Positions 1,860-19,948 of a stretch of DNA of 44,046 bases are shown here, piece after piece; positions within the stretch are counted from its first letter, which is position 1, and every line of letters begins with the position of its first letter. The DNA lies in NCBI GenBank assembly GCA_964398955.1, contig CAYNOZ010000002.1, forward strand, positions 1,814 to 45,859, given 5' to 3'. The notes beneath the pieces are model-generated. The model saw nothing but the letters and a program-made list of their open reading frames with translations. It did no database searches and had not been told where the DNA came from. The translations under genes and the position numbers were made by a program. Source of the stretch: an uncultured Thermococci archaeon (GTDB lineage Archaea > Methanobacteriota_B > Thermococci > Thermococcales > CAYNOZ01).

Positions 1860-1871
1860 TTATTTTACCTC

Positions 1872-2714
1872 TTATTCAAATATTTTCTTTATCTCCGGAT
1901 ATATTGACACATTTGTCTCTTTATGCGGTATTGTATTAGTTGCAACTATTTCTTTTGCTCCGGCTTCTTTAATTTTCTTTGATGCATCCTCCATTAGAAA
2001 AGCGTGGGTACAGGTTGCATGTATAGAATCAGCTCCCTGTTCTTCCAGTAATTTAACAGCTTCCGACATTGTACCTCCTGTACTGATGATATCATCGAAA
2101 ATTATTACTTCATTACCGGAAACATTCATTTCATGTACAGACATTTCAACCTCAGTTGGGGAGATCCTATGCTTGTCTAAATAGTCATATTCAGCATTTA
2201 ATTGGTTAGCTAATTTCTCAGCTCTTTTTATCGCTCCCTTATCAGGAGCTATTATTAAAGGATCATTTAAATCATTGAAATAATTTGACAGAGATTTTAT
2301 TGGAATAAGATTTTCAGCATCATTAAAGAACCTCGTAGTTTTCGGGTTATGAAGATCAAAGAAATAATATTCATCAAAATAATTATTTAACATATTAGCA
2401 ACAGCACGAATACTAACCGGCTCTCCCTCCTCAACTACTCTATCCTGCCTTGAATAAGCCATATAAGGAATAATAGCATTTAATTTCTCTACGCCCTTCT
2501 CTTTTAGAGCATCACCAAATAACAATAATTCTATCAATTTCTCATCCTGAGGACTATAAGAAGATTGAACAACAGTAACCTCATCACCTACATCATCTAA
2601 AATTCTAACATACTTATCCCCATCCGGAAACTTATCTATCTCCAAATCAACTAACTCATCTTCCTCAAAATCATCCTCAAACGGTTCAGAACCTGATCCT
2701 AACACAAAATCCAT
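1872..2714 (-). CDS. prs: Ribose-phosphate pyrophosphokinase (PRPP synthetase)
   Basis: PRPP-binding loop VIIFDDIISTGGT, plus RQDR and DLH motifs. The N-terminus is unusually acidic. Confidence 0.9.
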   Translation of the reverse strand: MDFVLGSGSEPFEDDFEEDELVDLEIDKFPDGDKYVRILDDVGDEVTVVQSSYSPQDEKLIELLLFGDALKEKGVEKLNAIIPYMAYSRQDRVVEEGEPVSIRAVANMLNNYFDEYYFFDLHNPKTTRFFNDAENLIPIKSLSNYFNDLNDPLIIAPDKGAIKRAEKLANQLNAEYDYLDKHRISPTEVEMSVHEMNVSGNEVIIFDDIISTGGTMSEAVKLLEEQGADSIHATCTHAFLMEDASKKIKEAGAKEIVATNTIPHKETNVSIYPEIKKIFE

Positions 2715-3144
2715 AATACCACCTAAAAAATATAATCTTATTACTTAAATAAACTGATCTCATGCAAATAAAATAAATTCAAAACAAAGTCAACAACGAC
2801 TTACACCTCAAAGCAAACCTCTACCTTAACATCCTACCCAATACTTAAAAAGTATACCTCCACAAGAAGAATCATAAAAACTAAAGACCAACATCAAAAA
2901 ACTTACTACCACATAAAATAGGTATTCTAAACAATTTTCAAAATCTAATATAACCTAAAAACAAAAAATACAAAATAAAATACAAAATAATATATTAAAA
3001 ATCAATGAAAAAGTTATTTAATATCTATAAAATATTAAAAAACCTATAAAGATGAAAAACCATCTTATTTTAACATATATTAACCCTACTACGACTAGGA
3101 AAAAGGCTTTTATAACATGGAAATAAAAGAACACAGGTGACAAT

Positions 3145-3759
3145 ATGAGTGGAGAAGAAAGTAGAAAAACGGGAACCACCACGGTCGGAATAAGAATAAA
3201 TGATGGTGTGGTTCTAGCGGCTGATACTCAAGCTTCATTAGGAAATATGGTTTCCAGCAAAGACATAGAAAAAGTCCTTAAAATCACTGACAGAATCGGA
3301 ATAACCACCGCAGGATCAGTTGGAGACGCTCAATATTTAGTCAGAATCATCAAGGCACAAACTAAGATGTACAAATATGAAGAGAAAAGAAACATCACCA
3401 TAAAATCACTCGCAACCTTACTCTCAAACATCTTACAAAGAAACAAAGTGCCAATACCATTCATGAACCAACTAATCCTAGGCGGATACGACGAAGAAGG
3501 ACCAAAAATAGGAACCCTAGATCCTCTAGGCGGACTAATATTTGAAGAAAAATTCACAGCAACAGGATCAGGATCACCAATGGCCTACGGACTACTAGAA
3601 GACGAATACAATGCAGACATGACCATAGAAGAAGCTAAAGACCTTGGAAAAAGAACAGTAAAAGCAGCCTCACAAAGAGACATCTACACCGGAGAAAAAA
3701 AGGTACAAATAGTAAGCATAACAGAAGAAGGCTACGAAAGCAACTTCATCGAACAATAA
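3145..3759 (+). CDS. psmB: Proteasome subunit beta
   Basis: Short propeptide followed by the GTTTVGI processing site (active-site Thr). Ntn-hydrolase beta-subunit pattern throughout. Confidence 0.95.
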   Translation: MSGEESRKTGTTTVGIRINDGVVLAADTQASLGNMVSSKDIEKVLKITDRIGITTAGSVGDAQYLVRIIKAQTKMYKYEEKRNITIKSLATLLSNILQRNKVPIPFMNQLILGGYDEEGPKIGTLDPLGGLIFEEKFTATGSGSPMAYGLLEDEYNADMTIEEAKDLGKRTVKAASQRDIYTGEKKVQIVSITEEGYESNFIEQ

Positions 3760-3848
3760 TCTCTATCTTTTTTATTTTCTATAAAACCTAAAAAACTAAA
3801 ACCAAAAAACTTTTAAGTAGAATGTTTGCACATAATACAGGAATCTCA

Positions 3849-3926
3849 GCCCCGGTAGTGTAGTTCGGCCAATCATGTTGGCCTTTCGAGCCGATGACTC
3901 GGGTTCAAATCCCGACCGGGGCACCA
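3849..3926 (+). tRNA. tRNA-Glu (anticodon UUC), CCA encoded
   Basis: Acceptor GCCCCGG/CCGGGGC; anticodon stem TTGGC/GCCGA with loop CTTTCGA; T arm TCGGG-TTCAAAT-CCCGA; then ACCA. Confidence 0.88.
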
Positions 3927-3960
3927 AAAAACCATTATATAAAGAATAAATTCTTCTCAT

Positions 3961-4035
3961 GCCCTGGTAGCTTAGTGGTAAAGCGCGTCCTTGGTAAGGA
4001 CGAGAGCGCGGGTTCAATCCCCGCCCAGGGCTCCA
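3961..4035 (+). tRNA. tRNA-Thr (anticodon GGU), CCA encoded
   Basis: Acceptor GCCCTGG/CCAGGGC; D arm GCTT-AGTGGTA-AAGC; anticodon stem CGTCC/GGACG with loop TTGGTAA; T arm GCGGG-TTCAATC-CCCGC; then TCCA. Confidence 0.88.
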
Positions 4036-4157
4036 TATTGCTTAGTAAAATGCCAGCCTGCGGGTTCGCCTGTTCTAAGAACTGAATACTGCCTTAAGGC
4101 AGTTTCGATGCTGTTCCGCTTCAAAATTTTAAGTATCTGTCGAACCATTCTATAATT

Positions 4158-4565
4158 ATGCAGAGCCTAGAACAACCTGAAGGCGAGGATGAAAACCCTG
4201 AGAAAGAAATAGATCAGCTATCAGAAGGCCAGTTCTCAGAAGACCTGTATGAAGAACTTTCCAATGATAGCGAGTACAGCGATCTGGCCGAAGAACTGAT
4301 GGCAGGAGTTCCAGAAGAAGCAAGAACGAACGACGGAGTCACCTACGAAGTGAAGGGTTTCGAAGATACAGAAGATGGGATGGTCATGGCCAAGGTCTCC
4401 AACAGCAGCGAAGAGGAAGAGCTGGCGGAGAATTTGCTACAGATCTACGTTGCTATGGAGCAGTTCAAGTACGAATTGGGTCCAGAAGAAGCAGAAACTT
4501 ATGATGAGGAGATTTTGGAGCCGTTTAGACAAAGTATTGCAGGAGAGTACGTTAGAAATGCATAA
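4158..4565 (+). CDS. Hyper-acidic small protein, unknown function
   Basis: 135 aa. By my count it has 41 Asp+Glu versus 7 Lys+Arg. The coding region looks clearly GC-richer than its neighbours. Confidence 0.6.
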   Translation: MQSLEQPEGEDENPEKEIDQLSEGQFSEDLYEELSNDSEYSDLAEELMAGVPEEARTNDGVTYEVKGFEDTEDGMVMAKVSNSSEEEELAENLLQIYVAMEQFKYELGPEEAETYDEEILEPFRQSIAGEYVRNA

Positions 4566-4568
4566 GTA

Positions 4569-5075
4569 TTAATCGTTTGCAATACTTCTAAGCATTGATT
4601 TATGGTTTTCAGGAAGGTAGGTTCCCGCTTCTTTAGCTTCTTTTATTAATTTATCGGCTTTTCTGAAACTAATTTTTTCTCTTTCAATTAATTTTCCTAA
4701 AATGCCTAAAGTTCCCTTCAGATTTAAGCCAATTTTTTCACACGCCTCACGTGCTCTCCCATCGTCAAGACAGCAGAAATATTCTTTATTCTTATTATCA
4801 AATTTTTCTCCAAGTGTTAATACTGCTAATTCGCCATCTCCTAAACGAAAATATCTATTAGATAATTCCTCATGTCGATTTTTATCACACTTTATAATCT
4901 TAGAATTATTTAGAATATCTTCTGTTATAGAATTATTCGTATCTACCTCTTCGATGACATTTTGTGGTATGACTATTTCATATTCTGCTTCCAATAGTTT
5001 GTTGAAGATGATGGGTTTTTCAAGTTCCTCTATCCAACTAATAAGAATTGAAGCATCAAGAATAAGTTTAGTCAT
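4569..5075 (-). CDS. PIN-domain toxin (VapC-like; the PIN family that pairs with UPF0175-type antitoxins)
   Basis: N-terminal LILDASILI (first acidic residue). C-terminal CLDDGRAREACEKIGLNLKGTLGILGKL signature. Its ATG overlaps the stop codon of the upstream ORF by 8 nt. Confidence 0.8.
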   Translation of the reverse strand: MTKLILDASILISWIEELEKPIIFNKLLEAEYEIVIPQNVIEEVDTNNSITEDILNNSKIIKCDKNRHEELSNRYFRLGDGELAVLTLGEKFDNKNKEYFCCLDDGRAREACEKIGLNLKGTLGILGKLIEREKISFRKADKLIKEAKEAGTYLPENHKSMLRSIAND

Positions 5076-5667: not shown

Positions 5668-5699
5668 TGCTTAAGTAGAACTGTGACTACTTAAAAGGT

Positions 5700-6899: not shown

Positions 6900-6912
6900 T
6901 AAAAAATCGGGG

Positions 6913-7873: not shown

Positions 7874-8463
7874 CTTGGACCTCCTTAAGGCGGCCCGCAG
7901 ATCCTTTCTCGGCAACTTAACAAACCAGAGCTTGTTCTCCCAGGGCTCCAATAAAATCTTAAGGAATAAAAATATAACAAAAACCAAAATAAAGAAAAAT
8001 ATTCTTCTAAATTACCTTTAAAACTTTAATGAAACCTCTTAACTGAAAAATATTAATAATACCAACTTAAAACAAGACCTTTAAGAATAGAATAAAAAAA
8101 TCCCAACTAACCTAAAGAACAATAAAAAATGAGGAATTAAAAGAACTAACCAATGCCACGAGTTGGAACCATACAAATCAACAAAAAGCCACAGAAATCA
8201 TCTCACCGAGTTAAAAAAAATTTAATGTTTAATATTTCCCAATTTGTTTGAAATATAAGAATTATAAAATAGATTAATTAATAACATGTTAAATCTCCAT
8301 TTATAAGATAAAATACAAATAAAGAGTCAAAACAAGTAAATCTCGATAAAACTACTTCTCAAATATTTAAAAATTATTTAATATCACATGTGTTTAAAAC
8401 ATATTTTTTAAACATATTCTTTCGAATCATAAATTGTTTAAGGATCTTAATTGATAATTAACT

Positions 8464-8636
8464 GCCGTGGTACTGTAGTAAGTAGTAAGATGACAATGTG
8501 ATCATGGATAGGGAATCATCAGGAAACCATGATGTGAACTCGTGGTGAAAGTTACGGGGGCGCATGATGTTAAAGTTGTGATGTAAAACTATCCATGGCT
8601 TGAACCTGTCATTGGCGAAAACTATGGCGCCACGGC
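8464..8636 (+). ncRNA. Candidate structured small RNA, family unknown
   Basis: Three nested helices: 8464-8470/8630-8636 (GCCGTGG/CCACGGC), 8490-8495/8607-8612 and 8503-8509/8591-8597. Three RTGATGT motifs sit at 8529, 8564 and 8578. A T6 run follows at 8639-8644. There is no ORF, and the segment is GC-rich relative to its flanks. Confidence 0.5.
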
Positions 8637-8704
8637 TATTTTTTGTTATTTAAACATTTCTCATTAAAATTTTATTTTATATTGGTTTTAAATTTGTAAT
8701 TCTA

Positions 8705-8786
8705 TTTAGTTTTTTGTTGTGTTTTTAGTTTTGTTATCTTTCATAGTTGGGTAAGACCTCGTCCCTTAGGGCGAGGATACACCCAA
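8705..8786 (+). repeat. Copy 2 of the leader + TTGGGTAAGACC + hairpin module
   Basis: See copy 1. Here the hairpin is at 8757-8776 and is enclosed by an outer helix TTGGGT(8747-8752)/ACCCAA(8781-8786). Confidence 0.6.
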
Positions 8787-9340: not shown

Positions 9341-9385
9341 CCTTTTATAGGGCTGATTTTGAGTGAGTTGGGTGGGGAAGGTGTT

Positions 9386-10036
9386 TTAGTAGCCTAGTTT
9401 TTCTTTTATGATTATTATTGTTGTGTCTGTTCTGGTTGGTTTTCTGTGTTGTATTGTTGTGATTTTACATATTCTATCTTCTGATTTGCAGTTGCTGCAT
9501 TTTCCTGTTTGGGCGCATGGTACGTTTTTATTGAGTCTTTTAGCGTTTTTTGGTGCTGCAACATTTCTTACTCTTTCTATTCCCTTATCCACGTTTTCCA
9601 CGATCTTATTTATTCCTGCGACTATTATTACTTGATCTGGTCCGAATATCATGGAAGCTACTCTTTGTCCTGTGCTATCAATGTTTATTAATTCCCCTGT
9701 CTCAGTTAGGGCATTTGTGCTGGAGATGAAAACATCTGATGTTAGCTGGTTCTTCCTTACTTGGTTCATTTCTTCGCCTTTGAGACCGCTCATCTTTGCT
9801 TTTCTATTATCCGCCACCTCATATCCTTCATCGATTAGAATATCGGATAAACCAATATCTTCTACTGTTACTGAATCCCCAATCCCAATTCTAGCCTTAT
9901 CCGGAATTAAATCCATTATTTTAGAGACCGATTCTTCTTTATTAGAAACAGAAAAGGCTTTAAAATCATTTTTACGAAAACTTTCCACTGCTCTACCTAC
10001 CTTAGTATCTGAATACCATCTTTCCTCATCCCTCAA
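9386..10036 (-). CDS. LUD (DUF162, LutC/YkgG-like) domain protein
   Basis: VIIVAGINKIVENVDKGIERVRNVAAPKNAKRLN and a Cys-rich C-terminus (CAQTGKCSNCKSEDRIC). The start is uncertain: TTG at 10036 (MRDEERWY) fits the family N-terminus, but the open frame extends to 10144. Confidence 0.75.
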   Translation of the reverse strand: MRDEERWYSDTKVGRAVESFRKNDFKAFSVSNKEESVSKIMDLIPDKARIGIGDSVTVEDIGLSDILIDEGYEVADNRKAKMSGLKGEEMNQVRKNQLTSDVFISSTNALTETGELINIDSTGQRVASMIFGPDQVIIVAGINKIVENVDKGIERVRNVAAPKNAKRLNKNVPCAQTGKCSNCKSEDRICKITTIQHRKPTRTDTTIIIIKEKLGY

Positions 10037-10453
10037 AAACCAACACCACCCAAAATAATTAATAAATAAGAATAAGTTTTTCGGATCCCATGACACATTA
10101 ACGCTAAACTTGAAATAGAAAAAATTAGAATCAACTATTAACAATTATTGATAGATAAGTAATTCAATAATTTTGAGTTTAAACAATTATTATGTGTTTA
10201 ATTTAAATTGATTTGATGTGATTGTTCAAGAATATAATTTAATGTTTATTATAGTTCAGGTTATTCTCTAAAAACTAAAAATAATAATTTTAATTACTAA
10301 TAAATATGGTGGTTGACTGAGGCAAGTTTTATAAGGTACTTATCCTTATATAAGACAGATGTACAAAGATCAATTAAAACAGAATCAATCAAATTTCATA
10401 AAAATTTATTCTAAAAACCTAAAATCCACAATTAAAAAAGATTGGGGATTCCA

Positions 10454-12040
10454 ATGAAAATCCGAAAATTGAGGAACCAAGAACGAGGAGTAAGTGTAAT
10501 ACTAGGAGCAATTCTACTAATGGGAATACTAATACTAACCTTCCCAATAATCTACCACCAACACGTAAAAAGCAACATGATAGACAACGAAGAAGCACAA
10601 ATGGAAAACGTAAAAGAACAATTCCTCGAACTCCAATCAAAAATAAGCTACATGGAAGGACCAAACGACAACGGACAAACCAAAATACCCATGAGCGCAG
10701 AATCAGTACCACTATTCCCAGGACAAAGCCCAGCAGGAACAATAACAACAATCAAAGGTAACGGAATACCAACAGATATAGGTGGAGACCCTAATACAAA
10801 AGTTTACAAAATCAATACAGGATCAATTAAATTTCAAGGAAGAAACCTATTCTACCCAGATCAGAATTACATCCTCGAGGCAGGTCACGTAATCCTAGAA
10901 CAAGACGGAAAAAGCATAATGATATCACCAAACGAAGATCTAATAACATACTCAAACAATTCAAACGAAAACAAATTAGAAATAAAATACCCATACCTAA
11001 ACAAAACAAAGTCAATCTCCTCAACCAGCACAGAAACAATAACCCTAAAATGGGGAGGAAGAAAACGATACCCACAAAACAAAGAACTAATAAAAACCAA
11101 TCAAACCCTTAAATTCACCTTCATAACAGACCACATAAAAGCATGGGAAACCTATCTACAAGCAAAAGATGACAATATCACCAACATAGACTTTGAAGTA
11201 AATAAAACTGCTGACAGAGTTTACATCCAAACACCAGATGACGCAAACTTCACATACTATGCCTCATCCACCGAACTAGGAGGAGAAGTAAAAGAACCAA
11301 TCGTAGAAACCAAAGGATTTGATGAAGAGAAAGTGAACTATAACTCCGCTGTCCTAAACATGAGTTATAACTTCAAAGACTATAGTGAAGGAGAAATCAG
11401 ATTCCAATACAGAGAAATACCAAATGGAACTTGGGGTTCAAGTGGATGGGAAACACAATATGGAACTAATTCCACTTATTCTAGACTAATTTCAGGCCTT
11501 AAACCAGATACAGAATATATATACAGAGCTCAAATAAAATACAACTCCAAAACCAAAAAAGGAGAAATTAAAGGCCCATTCGAAACAGAAACAATACCTG
11601 AATATGGAATAGGGAATGAAACCGGAAACGGAACCGCAGACACCATAATAATGCCAACAAGACAAGATGTTGTCTATCTACAAGATTCCAATTGGGATGA
11701 ACCTACATTAAAGTTGACTCTGAATAATACTTATGAAAGCTCTGTAAATATTACTAAGTCGAGGGTAGCTTTCTATTCATTAGCATCCCCCGGAGGTGAT
11801 AGTATAGAATCAAAATGGGGTAGCAATATTACCAACTCTAGTGGAACAGATCTACAACATAAAATTGGAGGGGATTTTCAACCGACGGAGAATGATGGAG
11901 AGATTCTGCCTGATGAAAACACAAAAATTGAAATATACCTAGATGCTGATAACAACAACTACAATGCATGGATTATGTATCAATTCAAGATTGATCCAGG
12001 AGGATATTATTCATTATTCGTAAGCTTCACCGATAAATAA
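10454..12040 (+). CDS. Large archaeal type IV pilin-like protein (class III signal peptide, Pilin_N type) with a possible beta-sandwich/FN3-like module
   Basis: The N-terminus is MKIRKLRNQERG|VSVILGAILLMGILILTF: a basic stretch, Gly, then a hydrophobic helix. The middle segment TEYIYRAQIKYNSKTKKGEIKGPFETET looks FN3-like. The ATG at 10454 is preferred over the TTG at 10442. Confidence 0.75.
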   Translation: MKIRKLRNQERGVSVILGAILLMGILILTFPIIYHQHVKSNMIDNEEAQMENVKEQFLELQSKISYMEGPNDNGQTKIPMSAESVPLFPGQSPAGTITTIKGNGIPTDIGGDPNTKVYKINTGSIKFQGRNLFYPDQNYILEAGHVILEQDGKSIMISPNEDLITYSNNSNENKLEIKYPYLNKTKSISSTSTETITLKWGGRKRYPQNKELIKTNQTLKFTFITDHIKAWETYLQAKDDNITNIDFEVNKTADRVYIQTPDDANFTYYASSTELGGEVKEPIVETKGFDEEKVNYNSAVLNMSYNFKDYSEGEIRFQYREIPNGTWGSSGWETQYGTNSTYSRLISGLKPDTEYIYRAQIKYNSKTKKGEIKGPFETETIPEYGIGNETGNGTADTIIMPTRQDVVYLQDSNWDEPTLKLTLNNTYESSVNITKSRVAFYSLASPGGDSIESKWGSNITNSSGTDLQHKIGGDFQPTENDGEILPDENTKIEIYLDADNNNYNAWIMYQFKIDPGGYYSLFVSFTDK

Positions 12041-12148: not shown

Positions 12149-12215
12149 GGTTATCTTACCAAACAATTCATCTTATTTTTAGGTATATTTGTTAGGTAAG
12201 ATCTTTTTTTCTCTT
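12149..12215 (+). terminator. Long hairpin followed by a T-run, downstream of the pilin-like gene
   Basis: 12153-12165 pairs with 12190-12202 (12 bp, one mismatch, built from TCTTACC/GGTAAGA arms). It is followed by tttttttctcttttt. Confidence 0.45.
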
Positions 12216-12506
12216 TTTGGAACTATGATCCCTGGTATTCATTGAAAAATTAATCCACCCTATTATAATCAGAGGTGTTACTCAATTACAATAGAATTAA
12301 ATTAGAACCAAATTTTTTTAATACTAAATACTTTGATAGCCTTTTGTTTGATTTTTGGTTTAAAGGAGACAAACAACTCATAAAAACAAAAGTTAGTTCT
12401 AACCTACTATGTTTCTGAACATGGTCTTAAATAGACGAGTTGAATAACATTACTTGAAGAATTTTTGCCGAAAACCTTTAAGTTTTTTCATGATAGATTT
12501 AGATAT

Positions 12507-13271
12507 ATGCTGGTTTCAGATATTTTCATGATGATTGTTTTATTAACTGGAATTTTAATTGCTTTATATACTGATTTATCAGATTTGAAGGGGGGTTTTA
12601 TTCCTGATAAGTTAACTTATACTTTGATCTTTTTTGGTGTAATTTTTCATTTGTTGTTAAGCGTATTTTTGGGGGCTTTTGATCCTGTTTTGTTTAGTGT
12701 GTCTGGAGCAGTTCTTGGGTTTTTGTTGGGGTTTGTTCTTTACTTTGTTGGGTTGGTTGGAGGTGGTGATTTGAAGTTATTGATTGCAATTGGAGCTTTG
12801 ATGCCTAACTCACCTACTCCTATTGTTGATGGGTTGGTTCCTTTATCTAGTTATCCTTTTTCGGTTGTTGTGGTTCTTTTGAATGGTATTTTGTTGGAGG
12901 CTCCTTTTGTGCTTGTTTTTGTTGTTTATTGTTTGGTTAGTGGTAAGAGTATTTTTTCTAGGGAGGTTTTGATTTCTGATTTGGAGGGTTTGGAGATTCC
13001 TGATGAGGCGGTTTATAAAAAGAATGGGGTTGTTAGTGTTGGTGATGATCTTCCTGATGATGTTGATGAGGTTTTTGCTGATCCTTCTGATTTGGGTGGG
13101 TTGTGTGAGGATGATATTGTGAAATTAGAGGAGTTGAGGGATTGTGGTGATATTGGTTCTAGTATTAGGGTTAAGAGGTCTTATCCTTTTGTTCCTGTTA
13201 TTGCTGCTGGTGTTTTTTCTATGGTTTTGTTCGGGAATTTGTATTGGAATTTTTTGATGTTATTTTTGTAA
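12507..13271 (+). CDS. Archaeal prepilin/preflagellin peptidase (A24 family, FlaK/PibD-like)
   Basis: Polytopic membrane protein with two catalytic Asp contexts: YTDLSDLKGGFIPD and GGGDLKLLIAIGA. The ATG at 12507 is preferred over the upstream TTG at 12465. Confidence 0.8.
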   Translation: MLVSDIFMMIVLLTGILIALYTDLSDLKGGFIPDKLTYTLIFFGVIFHLLLSVFLGAFDPVLFSVSGAVLGFLLGFVLYFVGLVGGGDLKLLIAIGALMPNSPTPIVDGLVPLSSYPFSVVVVLLNGILLEAPFVLVFVVYCLVSGKSIFSREVLISDLEGLEIPDEAVYKKNGVVSVGDDLPDDVDEVFADPSDLGGLCEDDIVKLEELRDCGDIGSSIRVKRSYPFVPVIAAGVFSMVLFGNLYWNFLMLFL

Positions 13272-13382
13272 AAATTGTTTTGGTTTTATTTGGGTTTTTT
13301 ATGTAATTTGATTTATTGTTATTTGTGGTTTTTTTTAGTGTTTTTGGTTGTTTTTTGGTTATTGTTTTCTTTTTTTGTTTGG

Positions 13383-13577
13383 TTATTGGTTTTGTTCCAT
13401 TTTTATTTTTCCTAGTGTTTTGTGGAATATCCAGACTCCTACTAGGAATGAGAGGCTTGATAGGGATGCTGATATTTCGTCTCCTGTCATTGCCCATGTT
13501 ATTGTGTAGTATAGGATTGGTGATAGTATTGTCACTGTCATGATGTATAGTATTAGTATTTTTATGAAGACGTTCAT
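13383..13577 (-). CDS. Possible small two-TM membrane protein
   Basis: 64-aa ORF, 54 nt downstream of the MinD-like gene on the same strand, with the same A/C-ending codon style. It competes with a low-complexity plus-strand ORF (13316-13543). Confidence 0.3.
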   Translation of the reverse strand: MNVFIKILILYIMTVTILSPILYYTITWAMTGDEISASLSSLSFLVGVWIFHKTLGKIKMEQNQ

Positions 13578-13631
13578 TTTGATCCCTTTCTTTTTTGTTG
13601 TTTTTTGTTTATGGGTTGCTGGGTGTTGTTT

Positions 13632-14408
13632 TTATTCTTTGTTTTGGTTTTTTTCTTCTTGTTTTTCTGGTTCTTTGGTTTTGGTTGTTATTTGTTCTGT
13701 TATGTTTTTTATTGCTTTGGTTGCTTTTGATCCTTCTTTGTATTGGATGAGAGGTTTTTGTAGTTCTGTGCTTTTTCTTACGTTTTTGTCGTGTGGTATT
13801 TTTCCTAGGTTGTTTGTTCCTAGTCTTCCTTGTATTTCTTTTTCGCTCATTTGGGTTTCTTCTCCGAATATTCTTGAGAAGAATCCTTTTTCTTTCCATT
13901 TGTTTAGTATGTATCCTTTTAGTTCTTTTTCAAGTACGTTTCCTACTCTTTGTGTGTTTTCGGCTGATGATACTGATGCTTCGTCTGGTGTTGTTACTAT
14001 TATTAATTGGTCTGATATTTCTATTGGTGTTATTGAGTTTTTGCTTATTCCGGGTGGTGTATCCATTATGATGTAGTCATATTCTTTGTCTAAGTCATTT
14101 ATTACGTTTTGAATTTTTTTTGTATCTATTTTTAGAAATTTCCTTAGTGAGCTTTCTGCTGGTAATATATCAACGTTTTTTGAGTAATTTTTTTTAACGT
14201 TTTCTATTGTTTCTTTTCCTGATAGTAATTCCATTAAAGTTGGATTAGAGTTTTTCATACCTAGGTATTGGCCAAGATTGCCTGATGAAAGATCAGTATC
14301 AACAATACAAACCTTTTTATCTTTTTTTGCTAGAGCTATGCCTAAATTGGCGGAAATGAAGGTTTTACCAACTCCTCCTTTCCCAGATACGACCGATATT
14401 TTTGTAAT
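13632..14408 (-). CDS. MinD/ParA-family P-loop ATPase (N-terminus lacks a canonical start codon)
   Basis: The ORF-track call starts at 14258, but the in-frame upstream sequence encodes ITKISVVSGKGGVGKTFISANLGIALAKKDKKVCIVDTDL, a deviant Walker A. There is no ATG, GTG or TTG between the upstream stop (14438) and the Walker A. See the finding for details. Confidence 0.8.
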   Translation of the reverse strand: MTKISVVSGKGGVGKTFISANLGIALAKKDKKVCIVDTDLSSGNLGQYLGMKNSNPTLMELLSGKETIENVKKNYSKNVDILPAESSLRKFLKIDTKKIQNVINDLDKEYDYIIMDTPPGISKNSITPIEISDQLIIVTTPDEASVSSAENTQRVGNVLEKELKGYILNKWKEKGFFSRIFGEETQMSEKEIQGRLGTNNLGKIPHDKNVRKSTELQKPLIQYKEGSKATKAIKNITEQITTKTKEPEKQEEKNQNKE

Positions 14409-14649
14409 GTTTAAACCCCCAAATGATTTTTTTAATCATGCTTATTTTATTTTGAATTTATTAATAGAACCAAGTTTTATTTCTAGTTTCTTTAATATGA
14501 TCTTATAGTATAATTTAAAGTTAATTTTTAAATATTTAATGTATTATTATTAAGTTTTCTATTATTTTCTAAATTTTCAGTAATTTGATTTTTTATTTTA
14601 GCCATTTCTCGGTTTGTTCTTTTTTGTTTTGGTTTTTTTGGTTTATTTT

Positions 14650-16491
14650 TTAGAATCCTAGGAATGTGAAGAAGGCCCATGCTATGGTTAGCATTATTAG
14701 GGAAAATTTTAATCCTGCGTATGGTGTTCCTCTTTTCATCATTCCGGCAAGTATTCCTGAAAAGAATCCTTGTATTAGTGATGCTCGGAAGAAGACTGTT
14801 TCGATTAGTGCTGGTTCTATTCCTCCTATTTGTCCTAATGCTTGTCCGCCTGATGCTGTTTGTGATTCTGACATGCGTGACATTAAGGGTACTAGTGAGT
14901 TTGCTATGTTGTATGCTGTTAGTAGGAAGATTCCGAATGTTAGGAAGACTATTATTGCATAGGTAGTTGTTACGTTATTTCTTTCTATTTGTAGGTTTCT
15001 TTCTGTTTCCACGTCTCTTGCTAGGACTTCTAGTATTTCGCTTGTTTCTGATGCTACTTCTGATGTTTTTTTGATTAGTGACATTACTCTGCTTATCATT
15101 CTTATTTCTATTCTATTTGCTGATCTTTGAAAGGCTTCTGTGACTGAGTTTCCCCATTCAATGTCTTTTCTTATGTTTTGTATTTCTTTTCCTAGTATTC
15201 CGTATTTTTCTGGTTTCATTATTGTTAGGGCTTTGAAAGGGGATAATCCTGACTTTAGTAGGTCGGAGAAGGAGTATAAGAAGTCAGGTGCTAAATTAAT
15301 CATTTCTCCTTCTCTTCTGCTCTTTATTTCAAATAGGATTGATACAGGTGTTAAAGATACTATGGCAAAGGCTGTGATCAATGTTTCGATTCTTAAAGTT
15401 AAAAATTGGAATAATAGTAAAGTTATTATAGAAGCTATTGGTAATGATATCCAGAGTGAGTGTGGTGGGCTCATTATCAAGCTTTCTACGCTGCCTAGTT
15501 TTTCCATTGATTCTGTCACATTTTCTTGGACTGCTTGTTGGAAGGATTTATTTTCTTCAGGAGTTGGTTCGTTCTCTCCAAATTCCGTTCTTGACTGCAT
15601 ATCTAAGATTACTATGAATATACCTGTTCCAAATGGTATTCCAACGTAAACTATTAGGTAAAGTATATTTGTTCTAAATGGCCCCATCATTCCGAATAAT
15701 ATGAGCATTATTACTCCGAATATAGGTCCTAATCCTAGGCTGGTTACGTATACTTCTGAGAGTATTCCTAAAAATTCAAGATTTCTTTCTTGTTTTTCTT
15801 TTGCTTCATCGTAATATTCGTTTGATCTTCTACGCAGAAATTCGCTTTTATTAGTACCTGTCTCTATAACGGAGGCGAAAGATGTTAAAAAGTCTTCAAA
15901 TTCTTCTGATGGTGTCGTTTCGGCTACATCTTCCATCGCGTCTGTTGGACTATACCCTAAAACCTTAGAATTTCTTGCTATTGCTCCAGCTTCTCTTGAT
16001 ATTTCTCCGTACTCAGTTTGTTCGCTGAGAGAATCGAAGATCTCTATAGGTTCGAATCCTCCTTTACTTAAAGCAAGCATATAAGCTGTTGCATGCGGTA
16101 ACATGTCCTCAATTCCCTTTTCACGATTAGAAGCGCTGATTTGAGGGTAGAACATGAATACTAGATACATTGCAGAACCTAAAATAGTACCAATAATTAT
16201 TGCAGCTATTATATACAGAAATTCAACCATGCCCTTACTTAGATAACCAATGCCCAAATTTATTGGCAATTTTACATAATCTAACATAGCAGGTCCTACA
16301 AAAAAGTATAAAAGTAGGAATGATACTGGAACCATTACAAAGGCTAAAACTAATGAATAAAAAATTGCTTTAGCAGCGTATTTATGAGGGGATCGGGAAA
16401 CTCTCATACTACGTAGATTTGTTTCAAGCTCAGAATATTCTCTATCCTGAATTTTTTTTCTTATAAACTCGATTGGATCCATTCTTAACAC
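14650..16491 (-). CDS. flaJ: FlaJ/ArlJ (TadC/PilC-like) polytopic membrane platform protein
   Basis: 613 aa with two T2SSF-like repeats and multiple TM segments, directly downstream of FlaI. Start is GTG at 16491 or ATG at 16482. Confidence 0.85.
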   Translation of the reverse strand: MLRMDPIEFIRKKIQDREYSELETNLRSMRVSRSPHKYAAKAIFYSLVLAFVMVPVSFLLLYFFVGPAMLDYVKLPINLGIGYLSKGMVEFLYIIAAIIIGTILGSAMYLVFMFYPQISASNREKGIEDMLPHATAYMLALSKGGFEPIEIFDSLSEQTEYGEISREAGAIARNSKVLGYSPTDAMEDVAETTPSEEFEDFLTSFASVIETGTNKSEFLRRRSNEYYDEAKEKQERNLEFLGILSEVYVTSLGLGPIFGVIMLILFGMMGPFRTNILYLIVYVGIPFGTGIFIVILDMQSRTEFGENEPTPEENKSFQQAVQENVTESMEKLGSVESLIMSPPHSLWISLPIASIITLLLFQFLTLRIETLITAFAIVSLTPVSILFEIKSRREGEMINLAPDFLYSFSDLLKSGLSPFKALTIMKPEKYGILGKEIQNIRKDIEWGNSVTEAFQRSANRIEIRMISRVMSLIKKTSEVASETSEILEVLARDVETERNLQIERNNVTTTYAIIVFLTFGIFLLTAYNIANSLVPLMSRMSESQTASGGQALGQIGGIEPALIETVFFRASLIQGFFSGILAGMMKRGTPYAGLKFSLIMLTIAWAFFTFLGF

Positions 16492-18213
16492 TTACTCATC
16501 TGAAACTTTCTCCAAAGCTTTTTCAGGATCAAAATAATATTGTCTGATTAAGGAAGCTACCTCTCCGTATGAAATGAGAGATTTTTCAGCCATTTTTCTT
16601 AGTAATTTGCTTCTTCTTTCCACTTCACGTTTCATTTCAGGCATACTCATTCCTTGGTCTTCTCTTATCTGCCTTAATATTTCAGATTCTTCTCTTTTAG
16701 TGAATGAATCATCCGCTCTATCCCATTTGTAGGTTTCAATTATCTTCAATCCTTTTGATTCAGATTCTAATCCTAGAAATTCTACGGTTTGATAGTTTCT
16801 TCTAACTTTTTTATCTTCTCTATTGGTAAGTAATTGAAGACATAACATATCTAGTTCCGCTAACATTGGTTTTGGCAGGTTTATAGGTTCTCCAACTAGT
16901 CTATTTACGGCATCTTGTATAGATCCAGAGTGCATAGTAGAGAATCCTGTGTGCCCTGTACTTATAGCCTGGAACATAGCTAATGCTTCTTTACCTCTTA
17001 CTTCTCCAACTAGTATTGCTTCCGGCCTTTGTCTTAATGCCTTCCTCACTAATTCATGCATATCCAATTTTTCCCCTTCTCCAGTTTCTCTAGTTAAATT
17101 TGGTAGCCAATTATCTTGATAAAGAGATAATTCACGAGTATCTTCTATAGACACAATCTTAGCATCCGGAGGAATAAAAAAGCCAAAAGCATTTAGGGTT
17201 GAAGTTTTACCTGATGCAGTACCCCCCACCACCATTATTGATCTTCCATTTTCAACAGCAATCCAAATATTTGCTAACATTTCCGGAGCAAAGGTTCCGT
17301 ATTTTATTAGATCAACTGGTGTGAAACTTCCTCCACCAAACTTTCTAATTGTGAATGAACTACCTCTTGTAGTAACCTCTGATCCTAAAGCCGCTTGGAG
17401 TCTGGATCTATCAGGTAAAGTTGCTTCTACTACAGGATCAGCATAAGAAACGTGAGATCCGCTTTTTTCAGCTAACTTTCTAACGAAAGAATTTAATACC
17501 TCTTCTCCGATCTCCAAATTGGTTTTAAGGTTGTAGAAGTCTCTATGGAAAAGATATATCGGTATGTTCACTCCATCACATGAAATATCTTCTATTGCTT
17601 CATCACGCATTAACCCATCTATTGGTCCATATTCTAAATTATCTCTAACCAGATGATATAATATCCTATGTATCTTTCTAGGGCTACTTATGCCTCGATC
17701 ATCTAAAATTTCTTTAAATCTTTTTCCAAGGAGTTTTTCCTTGTTTTCTTTAATTTTTGTATATGGGAGCCTGTTTTTTAATTCTTCCCAAATAATTTCC
17801 ATTTCTCTTTCCTCTTCCTCCGGCAGTTCTGGTTCCAGTAACTTGTATCTATATTCTCCTGTGTCTGTTTCTTTAACTATCTTCACTTTAGTGTAGGGTT
17901 TTTCAACCCAATAATCTTCTACTACTTTTTCTCCTTCTTTTACTTCTTCATCTATAAGTGACCCATATTTTAGAAAATCATATGGACCCATTCCACCTTT
18001 CTCATTTAATGGTTTTTCTCCCACAAATTCTTCAAGTTTAGACTGAATCTCCCCGATTTTCTCATCAGATTCCATCAATTCAGAAATATCTGGCTTAAAT
18101 TCTTTCCAATCAGTAGTAAGTTCCCTTAACCCATCTAATCCATCATCTGACTCTTTTAATGACTCCAACATAGATCCAATCTCTTCATCATCTACATTTT
18201 CTTTGTCGTTCAT
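16492..18213 (-). CDS. flaI: FlaI/ArlI-type secretion ATPase (GspE/VirB11 superfamily)
   Basis: Walker A GGTASGKTS, Walker B/Asp box IVSIEDTRE, and His box region GHTGFSTMH. Confidence 0.95.
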   Translation of the reverse strand: MNDKENVDDEEIGSMLESLKESDDGLDGLRELTTDWKEFKPDISELMESDEKIGEIQSKLEEFVGEKPLNEKGGMGPYDFLKYGSLIDEEVKEGEKVVEDYWVEKPYTKVKIVKETDTGEYRYKLLEPELPEEEEREMEIIWEELKNRLPYTKIKENKEKLLGKRFKEILDDRGISSPRKIHRILYHLVRDNLEYGPIDGLMRDEAIEDISCDGVNIPIYLFHRDFYNLKTNLEIGEEVLNSFVRKLAEKSGSHVSYADPVVEATLPDRSRLQAALGSEVTTRGSSFTIRKFGGGSFTPVDLIKYGTFAPEMLANIWIAVENGRSIMVVGGTASGKTSTLNAFGFFIPPDAKIVSIEDTRELSLYQDNWLPNLTRETGEGEKLDMHELVRKALRQRPEAILVGEVRGKEALAMFQAISTGHTGFSTMHSGSIQDAVNRLVGEPINLPKPMLAELDMLCLQLLTNREDKKVRRNYQTVEFLGLESESKGLKIIETYKWDRADDSFTKREESEILRQIREDQGMSMPEMKREVERRSKLLRKMAEKSLISYGEVASLIRQYYFDPEKALEKVSDE

Positions 18214-18344
18214 TATGGATTATCCCCAAAACTAACCTTAAAAACATTACCTTTTTCCGAACAACTAACTAATACTAAACACACATGTTAAAAAATGTTT
18301 TTATCTTTAAAACAAATTAAAAATAAATTTTATAAACTATTAGT

Positions 18345-19193
18345 TTAGGTATCTAACAAAAAGGTTCTCTTAGCCTCTAACCCTGAATTAGTAACATCAA
18401 ACTCAAATGTCGAATTAAGCAAGTCACTAGAAGTCACTCCAGAAAATTTATCACAATTCATCTTCCTAGTCCTACTCCCACCACTCGTAGTAGATCTAAA
18501 CTTAAAAACCCCATCAGATAACGAAAGAATAGAATTCTCAACATTCTCAGGGAAAATACCATCAGACAAACGAGTAAAAATCAACGACCTCCAATCCTCC
18601 CTATTCTTAGACCTAATAGTTCTCAAAGAAGTAAGCAAATCCCTCTCCTCACCACTTGGAAAAGCCCTAATCAAATCATCTAAAGACTCAATAAAAATCA
18701 AACTATTCCTACCATTATTATCAATATAATCAATAACAGACCTAACAATCTCAATAGCTTCCTCCTCCTCACCATCCTCCAAAGCCTCATCAGGAGATTC
18801 CAAAGAAGACAAAGTAGAAGAATAATAATCAGACATTAAATCCTCAAACTCTACAACTTCCCTAAAAGACTCTACCAAATCATCAGAATACGCAACTGAA
18901 ACATCTCTAATAATATCATTCTTAGTTTTTGAAAGAAGAACATAAAGAATATTATCAGGCAAAAAAACATCCTCACCATCTGACACATTAAGAATACCCT
19001 CCTTCCTAGCCGCATTCATAAAAGCAGACGTATGAATAAAAGCCTCACGACCAGAACCAGTCCTACCAAAAAGAACTACAAGAGACCCTGAAGGAAGCCC
19101 ACCAGAAACAGCTAAATCAATAGATCCAACTCCAGTAGGTATCCTCGCCTCACCATTCTCAAAAGCATCTTCTCTTCTAGACATATTTTTCAT
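18345..19193 (-). CDS. flaH: FlaH/ArlH-like KaiC/RecA-fold protein with a degenerate P-loop
   Basis: IPTGVGSIDLAVSGGLPSGSLVVLFGRTGSGREAF shows the KaiC/RadA-type N-terminal pattern. The Walker A reads GRTGSGRE instead of GxxGxGK[ST]. Confidence 0.7.
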   Translation of the reverse strand: MKNMSRREDAFENGEARIPTGVGSIDLAVSGGLPSGSLVVLFGRTGSGREAFIHTSAFMNAARKEGILNVSDGEDVFLPDNILYVLLSKTKNDIIRDVSVAYSDDLVESFREVVEFEDLMSDYYSSTLSSLESPDEALEDGEEEEAIEIVRSVIDYIDNNGRNSLIFIESLDDLIRAFPSGEERDLLTSLRTIRSKNREDWRSLIFTRLSDGIFPENVENSILSLSDGVFKFRSTTSGGSRTRKMNCDKFSGVTSSDLLNSTFEFDVTNSGLEAKRTFLLDT

Positions 19194-19948
19194 CCTTACA
19201 ACTACAAAAAATAAACAAACTCAATCCAAACAATCTCAACTTACTCACAAATAACCTAGAAACCCAAATAAAGATCCATTCAACGATCAAGAAAATCTAA
19301 ATTAATTTTAAGTATTCCCTTCTTATTAAAAGAATTAATATTAATAAAGTTTACGAAAATTATTACAAATCCACAACACAACTAATAACTTACTAGCTAA
19401 ATTCCATAAAATCATTGTCTACTTGATCAGAAAATCCACCACACATCAAAAATTTAATTATCAATTTTGATTCATGGAGAAAGGAGTTAGATTTTAGTTG
19501 TGGAGCTCTTGATATTAATTTTCAAGACTTTATGTATTAGTTAATTTTGTGAGAGTTTTACTTTCATGCTAAAAGGTGATAGTAATTTACTTAATTTGTT
19601 TTTTTCATTAGATATTTCATATGTACATTAAGGAAAATTCTCTTTTTTTGATAAAAAAATGTAATCTTTATTCTTTTATATAAGTAATAAATAAATCGGA
19701 ACATTTATAAGTTTTGTAATCATTATTTTGTTTAGTGATCAAGGATTTAGATGATTCCTAACTTACTATCGTATGTGCACGTAAGGTTTTTAATTTATTA
19801 GGCATAATGTAGGATTTTAAGTTGTATTAATTAATTTGGTTACTGTTTAAATGATTTTGAAGCAGTTTAAGCTTTTTAATATTAGTTTGATTGAATTCCT
19901 TATTACTTAAATATCTGAGTTACTAATTAAATCCTCTGGAGGATTAAT

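What the first reader, a model, noticed from the sequence alone, without database searches (positions are those of the whole stretch)
2300..19450. Kb-scale mosaic of extreme amino/keto (A+C versus G+T) strand skew that ignores gene boundaries and orientation
Several patches have a plus strand almost devoid of G and rich in A and C:
- About 2300-3830
- 7990-8230
- 10380-11300
- 18214-19450
- 20270-20640
- 22900-23340
- 26440-26640
- 43510-43960

Other patches are the mirror image, rich in G and T with almost no C or A: 8640-8745, 9386-9700 and 12465-14650. My own counts for two 60-nt lines are C15/G4 for 2761-2820 and A3/C1/G12/T44 for 13321-13380.

The skew runs through coding sequence and changes synonymous codon choice.
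- In A/C-skewed DNA, sense-strand genes use almost only A- or C-ending codons (gga tca cca tac gac cta). Examples are the psmB 3' half, the first half of the pilin-like gene, and the MinD-like gene.
- Genes on the opposite strand of such patches use T- or G-ending codons (gtt ttg ggt gag aag). Examples are the prepilin peptidase, the FlaH-like gene and the prs 5' half.
- The style switches inside single genes, at about 3330 in psmB, about 11300 in the pilin-like gene and about 2300 in prs.

Neither gene orientation nor position within a gene explains the pattern. It looks like local strand-specific transition pressure (C->T plus A->G on one strand). Possible sources are ssDNA deamination, a patchy repair or recombination history, or local inversions in a strongly skewed replichore.
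Basis: seen in the sequence. Interest (0 to 1): 0.6.

Follow-up and report, generated by a model that had tools for sequence, protein, structure and literature searches.

The report
Patchy one-strand G/T skew in archaeon
In this uncultured sediment and brine archaeon about a sixth of the genome lies in 0.1-2.5 kb patches where one DNA strand is nearly stripped of A and C at every freely variable position; the pattern is real, confined to this genus among those sampled, tied on average to the ends of transcription units, and matches a published but unexplained kind of skew (GRINS), here in single-copy DNA.

Summary

- **Scale.** The pattern is genome-wide: 558 patches cover 16% of a 1.48 Mb MAG.
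- **Distribution.** It is weaker in the one congeneric MAG. It was not seen in 19 genomes sampled from five other families of the class.
- **Not an assembly artefact.** Logan's separate assemblies of sediment and brine runs from three studies carry the same patches at about 97-99.8% identity.
- **Acts on DNA.** Intergenic DNA and fourfold sites shift alike, and amino-acid composition follows at 13% of the silent-site shift.
- **Mostly lineage-specific.** Ortholog correlation is r = 0.17-0.20.

First, the shift is not transitions only. A<->T and C<->G ratios move as much as the transition ratios, so one keto-versus-amino parameter of about 8-fold fits. Second, orientation and position do matter on average. 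The sense strand is the A/C-rich one in 3 of 4 coding patch bases, and this rises towards the 3' ends of transcription units.

My best reading is repeated exposure or resynthesis of one strand, with repair by EndoMS/NucS, which does not cut A/C-type mismatches. The mechanism is inferred, not shown. The closest published case is GRINS, whose repeat criterion is not met here. The scan has noted the same pattern in at least ten other genomes.

The parts
2300..3830 (.). A/C-rich patch on the + strand (HMM core 2568-3012). It spans the 5' half of prs (- strand, 1875-2714), the divergent spacer 2715-3144 and psmB (+ strand, 3145-3756).
   Evidence: Keto skew is -0.28 over the whole stretch. psmB k3 by thirds is -0.32, -0.68, -0.82. 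Pfam gives Pribosyltran_N and Proteasome. Logan's contigs of runs from sediment and brine studies cover it with 6-15 differences.
7965..8220 (.). A/C-rich intergenic patch at the right edge of the tRNA-flanked island.
   Evidence: HMM. Keto skew is -0.35 for 7990-8230. Brine-run contigs join 4023 to 7939.
8670..8752 (.). Short G/T-rich patch in non-coding DNA.
   Evidence: HMM. Keto skew is +0.43 for 8640-8745.
9343..9558 (.). G/T-rich patch over the 3' end of the LUD-domain gene (- strand, 9389-10144). The sense strand is the A/C-rich one.
   Evidence: HMM. + strand k3 by thirds is 0.69, 0.19, -0.33. Pfam LUD_dom.
10380..11300 (.). A/C-rich patch over the first half of the 532-aa gene with no Pfam family (+ strand, 10442-12037). 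It lies left of a stretch where the brine-run contigs skip parts (about 11305-12505).
   Evidence: Keto skew is -0.37. k3 by thirds is -0.66, -0.55, -0.17. Contig joints at 11305, 11562 and 12140, with low depth over 11340-12006.
12465..14650 (.). The largest G/T-rich patch (HMM core 12623-14217). It covers the prepilin peptidase gene (+ strand, sense strand G/T-rich), the convergent spacer, and the ParA/MinD-like gene (- strand, sense strand A/C-rich). It fades into the T2SSF-like gene 14653-16491.
   Evidence: Keto skew is +0.42. + strand k3 is 0.53/0.82/0.89, then 0.97/0.91/0.51, then 0.79/0.46/0.04. Pfam gives Peptidase_A24, ParA and T2SSF. A brine-run contig covers 12505-14809 with 71 differences.
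18214..19450 (.). A/C-rich patch (HMM core 18498-19301) over the KaiC/FlaH-like first gene of the - strand operon. The sense strand is G/T-rich, and the patch runs into the divergent spacer.
   Evidence: Keto skew is -0.32. + strand k3 is -0.70, -0.79, -0.72. The G001 ortholog region is neutral at +0.10 and +0.03.
20253..20641 (.). A/C-rich patch at the 3' end of the response-regulator gene (+ strand, 19949-20602).
   Evidence: HMM. k3 by thirds is 0.19, -0.62, -0.53. Pfam Response_reg.
23046..23342 (.). A/C-rich patch at the 3' end of the + strand gene 22665-23192.
   Evidence: HMM. k3 by thirds is -0.03, -0.59, -0.69.
26393..26632 (.). A/C-rich patch at the 3' end of the + strand gene 26069-26572.
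   Evidence: HMM. k3 by thirds is 0.11, 0.04, -0.64.
43510..43960 (.). A/C-rich spacer at the right end of the window.
   Evidence: Keto skew is -0.29, with A193 C97 G38 T123. It was not called by the stringent HMM.

Best explanation
The patches are the footprint of a pressure, specific to this genus among those sampled, that replaces amino bases (A, C) by keto bases (G, T) on one DNA strand over tracts of 0.1-2.5 kb.

**Shown**
- It acts on the DNA itself, coding or not.
- It has persisted long enough to saturate silent sites and to drag amino-acid composition along.
- It turns over faster than the two species of the genus have diverged.

**Inferred mechanism**
- In these tracts one strand is repeatedly left single-stranded or resynthesised, while its partner is not.
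- The likely occasion is replication or recombination forks meeting transcription units. The template strand is the G/T-rich one towards 3' ends (head-on meetings). The sense strand is weakly G/T-rich at 5' ends (co-directional meetings).
- The amino-versus-keto axis then arises for two reasons. A and C are the bases lost from exposed DNA. The organism's mismatch endonuclease EndoMS/NucS cuts G/T, G/G and T/T mismatches but not A/C, A/A or C/C. All four amino<->keto substitution classes are therefore corrected asymmetrically between the two strands.
For: **Real and confined to the genus among those sampled**
- Keto-skew sd in 300-nt windows is 0.20 in G000 and 0.148 in congeneric G001. It is 0.06-0.084 in 19 genomes of five other families, with essentially no window beyond 0.3 in size (one genome 1%, the rest none).
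- Logan's contigs of sediment and brine runs from three studies carry the same patches.

**A DNA-level pressure**
- Fourfold sites go from A.42 C.11 G.10 T.375 to A.08 C.024 G.147 T.75, with the mirror image on the other polarity. Intergenic patch DNA shifts the same way.
- The shift in first and second codon positions is 0.13 times the shift in third positions (r = 0.56). It is not predicted by the ortholog's composition.

**One parameter**
- ln(T/A), ln(G/C), ln(T/C) and ln(G/A) move together by 4.0-5.2 units across bins. ln(A/C) and ln(T/G) move by at most 0.8. G001 shows the same.

**Anchoring to transcription units**
- 72% of genes have a negative slope.
- Junctions of 30 nt or less show no jump (0.009). 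Real gaps show +0.17 to +0.25, convergent gaps up to +0.63, divergent gaps about 0.
- Sense k3 from the unit's end runs -0.43, -0.41, -0.31 ... to 0 over about 800 codons. From the unit's start it is +0.14. First, middle and last genes of operons average 0.005, -0.061 and -0.263.

**EndoMS/NucS**
- Its specificity is published (PMC4838380, read).
- The G000 gene is intact, and the sequence blocks it shares with Thermococcaceae homologues align unchanged.

**Turnover**
- Ortholog k3 correlation is only 0.17-0.20. Of pieces beyond 0.6 in size, 67-71% are neutral in G001.
Against: - No direct evidence exists for fork direction, transcription or single-strandedness in this uncultured organism.
- tRNA flanks have the opposite sign to the conflict model: upstream -0.06 to -0.16, downstream +0.02 to +0.07, n = 27.
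- 19% of patch bases have a G/T-rich sense strand. The 10442-12037 gene is A/C-rich at its 5' end.
- Patches are symmetric in shape and carry no boundary motif.
- Thermococcaceae also have NucS, UDG and RNase HII and show no patches. The cause specific to this lineage is therefore unidentified.
- Equilibrium composition cannot separate a mutation bias from a fixation bias.
- My hand calculation shows that a damage model with depurination can also fit the composition, so NucS is not required.
Confidence: 0.4

Rival explanations
1. NucS-filtered, strand-polar biased gene conversion. At recombination hot spots such as intergenic gaps, tRNA genes and strain-variable cassettes, a 3' single-stranded tail invades a diverged homologue. 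Keto-keto mismatches are cut and the tail is recopied from the donor. Amino-amino mismatches pass. The strand that points 3' towards the hot spot therefore ratchets towards A/C. This is a fixation bias, not a mutation bias.
For: - It explains the single amino/keto parameter, transversions included, through the published EndoMS specificity.
- Patch lengths resemble conversion tracts.
- By my derivation the predicted polarity, A/C on the left and G/T on the right of a hot spot, matches four observations:
  - tRNA flanks.
  - Contig ends: the strand that leaves the end is G/T-rich by +0.08 to +0.10, p = 4e-8 to 4e-15, fading by about 3 kb.
  - The stretch 11305-12505, where brine-run contigs skip parts, and the indel-rich spacer near 19540-19615.
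  - Junctions whose content differs from G001: jump 0.277 against 0.048, p = 1.7e-5.
- Earlier notes of this scan proposed the same on other genomes. They are leads, not support.
Against: - After control for intergenic distance the variable-junction effect is not significant (t = 1.66). It is absent in G001.
- Divergent gaps show no jump.
- The convergent gap at 13269-13634 is G/T-rich on both sides.
- A/C-then-G/T and G/T-then-A/C patch neighbours are equally common, 59 against 55.
- Thermococcaceae have NucS without patches.
- A simple model of conversion among genome copies gave no net bias (my derivation).
Confidence: 0.22
2. Selection at the RNA or transcription level. An A/C-rich sense strand near the ends of transcription units gives an unstructured mRNA free of T-runs. 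It also makes the antisense strand T-rich, full of oligo-T terminators that would stop antisense transcription entering from downstream.
For: - Sense bias is 3:1, anchored at the 3' ends of transcription units, with almost no effect at 5' ends.
- The G/T-rich strand carries 19 runs of five or more T per kb.
- T is the dominant base, 75% at fourfold sites.
Against: - G over C shifts as strongly as T over A, which terminators do not require.
- A fifth of patch bases put the T-rich strand in the sense direction. The prepilin peptidase gene has k3 of +0.75.
- Intergenic patches occur in both polarities.
- Orthologs agree only at r = 0.17-0.20.
- The pattern was not seen in any of the 19 genomes sampled from five other families of the class.
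Confidence: 0.12
3. Translational selection for A- and C-ending codons, which pair by Watson-Crick with G34 and U34 tRNAs, rising along genes.
For: The third-position axis is exactly A/C against G/T. Mean sense k3 is -0.11 and falls from 5' to 3'.
Against: - The gradient follows transcription units, not ORFs. There is no reset at operon-internal stops (0.009).
- Intergenic DNA and first and second codon positions shift as well.
- Genes with k3 up to +0.9 exist.
- Conservation between orthologs is weak.
Confidence: 0.04
4. Artefact, or a mosaic made by mis-assembly, strain mixing or local inversions in a strongly skewed replichore.
For: The genome is a 114-contig MAG. Patches are somewhat commoner near contig ends (0.217 against 0.154).
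Against: - Long contigs from four runs of three studies reproduce the patches with 0-3% differences.
- Reading frames stay open, and proteins stay about 70% identical to G001.
- The skew respects codon position.
- 84% of the genome is neutral, so there is no skewed replichore to invert.
Confidence: 0.02

Closest known systems
[quoted passage not shown]
   Same: - Intense, positively correlated GC and TA skews (G+T against C+A) that change abruptly within 1 kb.
- Strongest at third codon positions.
- Amino-acid usage shifts: Gly, Val, Cys and Trp against Pro, Thr, His and Gln.
- The proteins stay functional.
- The mechanism is unknown.
- Inside the patches here r(GC skew, TA skew) is 0.68, against 0.70 in GRINS.
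   Different: - GRINS are defined as duplicated regions over 500 bp with over 80% identity to another copy, and are tied to gene conversion between repeats. Only 0.7% of patch bases here lie in such repeats.
- Here the skew is genome-wide (16% of the genome) in single-copy housekeeping DNA of an archaeon.
- Here it is statistically anchored to the ends of transcription units, which the GRINS paper does not report.
Strand asymmetry of vertebrate mitochondrial DNA, where the displaced heavy strand is deaminated while single-stranded (from my own knowledge)
   Same: One strand is G/T-rich and the other A/C-rich. G is almost absent at silent sites of genes whose sense strand is the A/C-rich one. 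The usual explanation is C>T and A>G on the strand that spends time single-stranded.
   Different: - There the asymmetry is genome-wide with one polarity, and it is driven by transitions.
- Here there are hundreds of short patches of both polarities.
- Here A<->T and C<->G ratios shift as much as the transition ratios.
Replication-associated GC/AT skew of bacterial chromosomes, with a G/T-rich leading strand
   Same: The axis is the same (keto against amino). The sign is the same if each gap between transcription units is read as an origin.
   Different: - The scale is 0.1-2.5 kb instead of a replichore.
- Silent-site skew reaches about 0.9.
- Polarity is random beyond about 1 kb.
- Switches occur inside genes.
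Transcription-associated strand asymmetry and mutagenesis, with deamination of the non-transcribed strand (from my own knowledge)
   Same: The skew is organised by transcription units. A weak G/T excess lies on the sense strand at 5' ends.
   Different: The dominant signal has the opposite sign, since the template strand is G/T-rich. It grows towards 3' ends. Many patches lie in spacers or cross convergent gene pairs.
EndoMS/NucS non-canonical mismatch repair (Ishino et al. 2016, PMC4838380; Takemoto et al. 2018, PMC6159521)
   Same: The enzyme's split between cut mismatches (G/T, G/G, T/T) and uncut ones (A/C, A/A, C/C) is exactly the amino/keto axis seen here. Takemoto et al. report strand-asymmetric transition rates.
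   Different: No local patches of skew have been attributed to NucS in the papers read. NucS is also present in the patch-free Thermococcaceae.

Membership tests
GRINS (Nivina et al. 2021) | Mean absolute GC and TA skews above 0.15 in 150-nt windows, positively correlated | tested here: met
   Inside patches the mean absolute GC skew is 0.30, the mean absolute TA skew is 0.50 and r = 0.68. The sampled relatives give r = -0.43 to -0.46.
GRINS (Nivina et al. 2021) | Length above 500 bp | tested here: inconclusive
   162 of 558 HMM patches exceed 500 bp. The median is about 270 nt and the maximum 2566 nt.
GRINS (Nivina et al. 2021) | Duplicated: over 80% DNA identity to another region of the same cluster or genome | tested here: not met
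   Only 0.7% of patch bases lie in repeats of at least 500 bp at 80% identity or more. Such repeats make up 0.22% of the genome.
GRINS (Nivina et al. 2021) | Skew strongest at third codon positions, with a matching shift of amino-acid usage | tested here: met
   Gene k3 has sd 0.36 and k12 has sd 0.12. F, V, G and L rise, or K, N, T and Q rise, according to polarity.
Replication-associated strand skew | Polarity constant over a replichore and switching only at origin and terminus | tested here: not met
   Neighbouring patches share polarity in 64% of cases at gaps under 300 nt and in about 45-50% beyond 1 kb. Contigs carry both polarities.
Single-strand deamination skew of the mitochondrial type | Asymmetry carried by the transitions C>T and A>G only | tested here: not met
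   T/A and G/C ratios shift as much as T/C and G/A. The pyrimidine share at fourfold sites is 77%. Changes that differ between orthologs include a large net T>A class.
Transcription-associated strand asymmetry | The sign follows gene orientation, with the non-transcribed strand enriched in G and T | tested here: not met
   The sense strand is the A/C-rich one in 76% of coding patch bases. Only the first few hundred codons or so of long transcription units show a weak G/T excess on the sense strand.
Transcription-associated strand asymmetry | The pattern is organised by transcription units | tested here: met
   There is no jump at junctions of 30 nt or less, and a jump of +0.17 to +0.25 at real gaps. 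The gradient runs over whole operons. The units were inferred from gene spacing, not from RNA.
Codon bias from translational selection | Confined to coding sequence, set gene by gene, conserved between orthologs | tested here: not met
   Intergenic patches are 19% of patch bases. There is no reset at operon-internal stops. Ortholog r is 0.17-0.20.
Enzymatic deaminase clusters (kataegis type) | Clusters of C>T or C>G on one strand, in a sequence context, caused by a DNA deaminase | tested here: inconclusive
   A is depleted as strongly as C. Only one housekeeping-type CDA-fold gene was found, as in the relatives. Sequence context was not analysed.

The most novel reading that the evidence does not exclude
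The failure of EndoMS/NucS to cut A/C, A/A and C/C mismatches creates a general force in NucS-bearing prokaryotes that nobody has described. Wherever one strand is preferentially resynthesised or preferentially invades during recombination, silent sites are driven towards all-keto on one strand and all-amino on the other. This would explain both these archaeal patches and the unexplained bacterial GRINS. The skew map would then be a readable record of where and in which direction repair synthesis or recombination starts in organisms that cannot be cultured.
Probability: 0.25. Interest if true: 0.85.

Novelty: new variant of a known kind. Interest (0 to 1): 0.68.

Why it matters
- **Size of the effect.** Silent sites in a sixth of this genome are about 90% determined by which strand they lie on. 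Few known strand asymmetries are this strong, and this one reshapes protein composition.
- **State of the literature.** The only published description of this kind of skew that I found (GRINS) ties it to repeats in bacterial polyketide genes and leaves the mechanism open.
- **What this case adds.** The skew occurs in single-copy housekeeping DNA of an archaeon. It follows a single amino/keto parameter that matches the specificity of the organism's mismatch endonuclease. It is organised by transcription units.
- **Use.** These three clues make the mechanism testable with population metagenomes and with genetics in Thermococcus kodakarensis.
- **Practical warning.** Such patches break the assumptions of codon-usage, horizontal-transfer and origin-prediction tools. 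They also create spurious long ORFs on both strands.

Tried and rejected
DNA of the strain variants found by the listing of cluster members could not be fetched.
- **The one metagenome-contig scan** gave only relatives at 37-44% identity.
- **Reads.** Read laying printed only 40 of 629 differing places, so no patch-specific SNP spectrum was possible. No RNA holder was listed.
- **Protein variants among strains** were too few and unpolarised.
- **Paralogous repeats** were too old to give a mutation spectrum.
- **Gene-content leads with nothing decisive**:
  - No reverse transcriptase was found in G000.
  - No Y-family polymerase.
  - RNase HII, UDG and NucS are present, as in the relatives.
  - One ordinary CDA-fold deaminase.
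  - EndoV was not found in G000, which is 91% complete, but is present in G001, which also has patches.
- **Sawtooth, origin-like or break-centred geometry** was rejected. Patch shape is symmetric, increment skewness is about 0.1, and A/C-then-G/T against G/T-then-A/C neighbours are 59 to 55.
- **No motif at patch borders**.
- **Amino-acid composition as the cause of polarity** was rejected.
- **Nearest-neighbour context as the cause** is judged unlikely by the same result.
- **My first estimate of ortholog correlation** (r = 0.06) came from best hits in a small sample. Reciprocal best hits with synteny replace it with r = 0.17-0.20.
- **Variable junctions.** The link to junctions that differ from G001 (p = 1.7e-5) shrank to t = 1.66 after control for intergenic distance. 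It did not replicate in G001.
- **Inside spacers** polarity is weak.
- **Rfam** found only three tRNAs in 1-20000.
- **Literature searches** for keto-skew patches in archaea found nothing direct.

Full report
**What the window is.** The window is G000:C2:1814-45859 of a MAG of 1.48 Mb in 114 contigs with about 34% G+C. Its order holds about 39 complete genomes of 1.7-2.4 Mb that look like Thermococcales (my inference from sizes and G+C). The MAG belongs to a separate family with one other species, G001, at about 70% nucleotide identity.
- prs and psmB
- a LUD-domain gene
- a 532-aa gene with no Pfam family
- an A24 prepilin peptidase
- an operon of KaiC/FlaH-like, T2SSE, T2SSF and ParA/MinD-like genes
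- a response regulator

**Observation.** Every listed stretch has a + strand keto skew, (G+T-A-C)/N, of -0.28 to -0.46 or +0.32 to +0.43. No 300-nt window of 200 shuffles exceeded 0.29 in size. A 3-state HMM recovered nearly the same intervals. Third-position skew (k3) reaches +0.97 and -0.82 and changes inside intact genes.

**Scale and distribution.**
- Genome-wide, the sd of keto skew in 300-nt windows is 0.20, against a binomial 0.058. Fourteen percent of windows exceed 0.3 in size.
- Gene-level sense k3 spans -0.9 to +0.9, with sd 0.36.
- The HMM finds 279 A/C and 279 G/T patches. They cover 16% of the genome, with a median length of about 270 nt and a maximum of 2.5 kb.
- G001 shows the same pattern more weakly, with sd 0.148.
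- Three Thermococcaceae and 16 genomes of four other families, several equally low in G+C, have sd 0.06-0.084. They have essentially no window beyond 0.3 in size: one has 1%, the rest none.
- In those relatives GC skew and TA skew are negatively correlated, r = -0.43 to -0.46. In G000 the value is 0.02 overall and +0.68 inside patches.

**Not an artefact.** Logan's contigs from sediment runs of one study match the first 20 kb with 0-6 differences per piece. Contigs from brine runs of two other studies match with about 1-6%, patches included. One example covers 12505-14809 with 71 differences. The patches therefore predate strain divergence.

**Nature of the pressure.**
- Fourfold sites are A.42 C.11 G.10 T.375 in neutral DNA. 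They are A.08 C.024 G.147 T.75 where the sense strand is G/T-rich, with the mirror image where it is A/C-rich.
- Intergenic patch DNA shifts the same way.
- T/A, G/C, T/C and G/A all change 7- to 11-fold, while A/C and T/G hardly move. Across nine bins of local skew, and in both species, the four amino/keto log-ratios move together.
- The shift is therefore not transitions only. The G/T-rich strand is 77% pyrimidine, which asymmetric C>T plus A>G cannot produce unless A<->T changes are equally asymmetric. This is my calculation, using the transversion counts.
- Differences between orthologs show large net T>A, T>C and G>A classes where the sense strand is A/C-rich.
- First and second codon positions follow at 13% of the silent-site shift (r = 0.56). 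The ortholog's composition does not predict polarity (r = 0.06 overall, 0.015 where G001 is neutral). Amino-acid change is therefore a consequence, not a cause.
- Protein identity to G001 falls only from 0.73 to 0.70 in the most skewed pieces.

**Conservation.** With 406 reciprocal best hits, 363 of them syntenic, k3 correlates at r = 0.17-0.20 between the species. Of G000 pieces beyond 0.6 in size, 67-71% are neutral in G001, 19-23% share the sign and 10% are opposite. In the window, the patch at the 3' end of the MinD-like gene is shared and the FlaH-like patch is not.

**Relation to genes.** Individual patches cross gene borders and include spacers. Nineteen percent of patch bases are intergenic, equal to the intergenic share of the genome. 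The statistics are not neutral, however.
- The sense strand is the A/C-rich one for 62% of patch bases and the G/T-rich one for 19%. The former class concentrates at 3' ends and the latter at 5' ends.
- 72% of genes have a negative slope of k3: 33% significantly negative against 4.5% significantly positive.
- The unit is the transcription unit as inferred from spacing. Junctions of 30 nt or less show no jump (0.009, n = 439). Real gaps show +0.17 to +0.25, convergent gaps +0.25 to +0.63 and divergent gaps about 0.
- In long units, sense k3 is -0.43 in the last 100 codons and returns to 0 about 800 codons upstream. It is +0.14 in the first 100 codons. First, middle and last genes of operons average 0.005, -0.061 and -0.263.
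- Polarity is otherwise random beyond about 1 kb. Patch shape is symmetric. No border motif was found.

**Further polarity tests.**
- Upstream of 27 tRNA genes the sense strand is A/C-rich (-0.06 to -0.16). Downstream it is slightly G/T-rich.
- At 228 contig ends, the strand that runs into the contig is G/T-rich by +0.08 to +0.10 (p = 4e-8 to 4e-15). This fades by about 3 kb.
- Junctions whose content differs from G001 show a larger jump, 0.277 against 0.048 (p = 1.7e-5). After control for intergenic distance this is t = 1.66, and G001 does not show it.

**Mechanism.**
- Selection on proteins or codons, mis-assembly and inversions are rejected or unlikely. The reasons are given under the rival explanations.
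- The amino/keto axis has two known molecular correlates. A and C are the bases that deaminate. EndoMS/NucS cuts G/T, G/G and T/T mismatches but not A/C, A/A or C/C (PMC4838380). The G000 gene is intact and aligns with the Thermococcaceae homologues over the shared sequence blocks.
- I favour, at 0.4, a local asymmetry in which strand is exposed or resynthesised. The likely occasion is forks meeting transcription units, and repair by NucS then sets the axis.
- At 0.22 I hold the related idea that NucS filters heteroduplexes during recombination.
- By my derivation both give the observed sign. Deamination of resected 3' tails gives the opposite sign.
- What changed in this lineage is unknown. 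Two leads exist. One is a second family B polymerase (NF004418, 895 bits) in which pattern searches find no FDIE (ExoI) or YxDTD motif. Thermococcaceae lack it. The other is that endonuclease V was not found in G000.

**Comparison.** The nearest published case is GRINS (PMC8256042). The skew criteria are met and the repeat criterion is not. Earlier notes of this scan describe the same pattern in at least ten other genomes, mostly archaeal, and some proposed the NucS filter. The GRINS reference and the hot-spot tests came from those notes. I reached the NucS link before reading them.

Noticed in passing
window 4024-7938: Contigs of the brine runs join 4023 directly to 7939. The island next to tRNA genes at 3849-3923 and 3961-4032 is therefore missing in those strains and is probably an integrated element.
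   Followed up: partly
window 11305-12505: The 3' half of the 532-aa gene with no Pfam family, together with the spacer behind it, is not matched at 90% identity by the brine-run contigs. Several joints and low depth mark it as a strain-variable segment. It lies between an A/C patch on its left and the big G/T patch on its right.
   Followed up: partly
G000:C13:11106-13190 (locus L106): A second family B DNA polymerase (NCBIfam NF004418, 895 bits). Its N-terminal part has no clear match to the exonuclease domain, no FDIE motif was found, and motif C reads GIIDS instead of YxDTD. G001 has a split copy. No such gene was found in 30 Thermococcaceae searched.
   Followed up: partly
whole G000 assembly: Endonuclease V (PF04493) was not found by profile search or by tblastn with the G001 protein. 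The MAG is 91% complete, so absence is not shown.
   Followed up: partly
window 8672-9338: A G+C-richer non-coding stretch (0.42-0.45) has 4-8 times the word depth of its surroundings in all four runs. Short matches to it occur elsewhere in the window (65-110) and in G001:C37. It is probably a multi-copy structured module. No Rfam family matched.
   Followed up: no
G000:C5:19060-20876: A tandem duplication of 893 nt at 99.8% identity lies inside one - strand gene. It has keto skew +0.35 (TA skew 0.56, GC skew 0.09). It is the only repeat here that comes near the GRINS definition.
   Followed up: partly
window 10419-10751 and 13540-14076: Patches lack stop codons on both strands. Long ORFs that are probably spurious therefore overlap the real genes there, which is a trap for gene callers.
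   Followed up: no
G000, several contig ends (for example C64:2-405, C75:41-393, C40:193-586): A repeat family of about 360-420 nt at 70-86% identity sits at or near many contig ends. It probably breaks the assembly.
   Followed up: no
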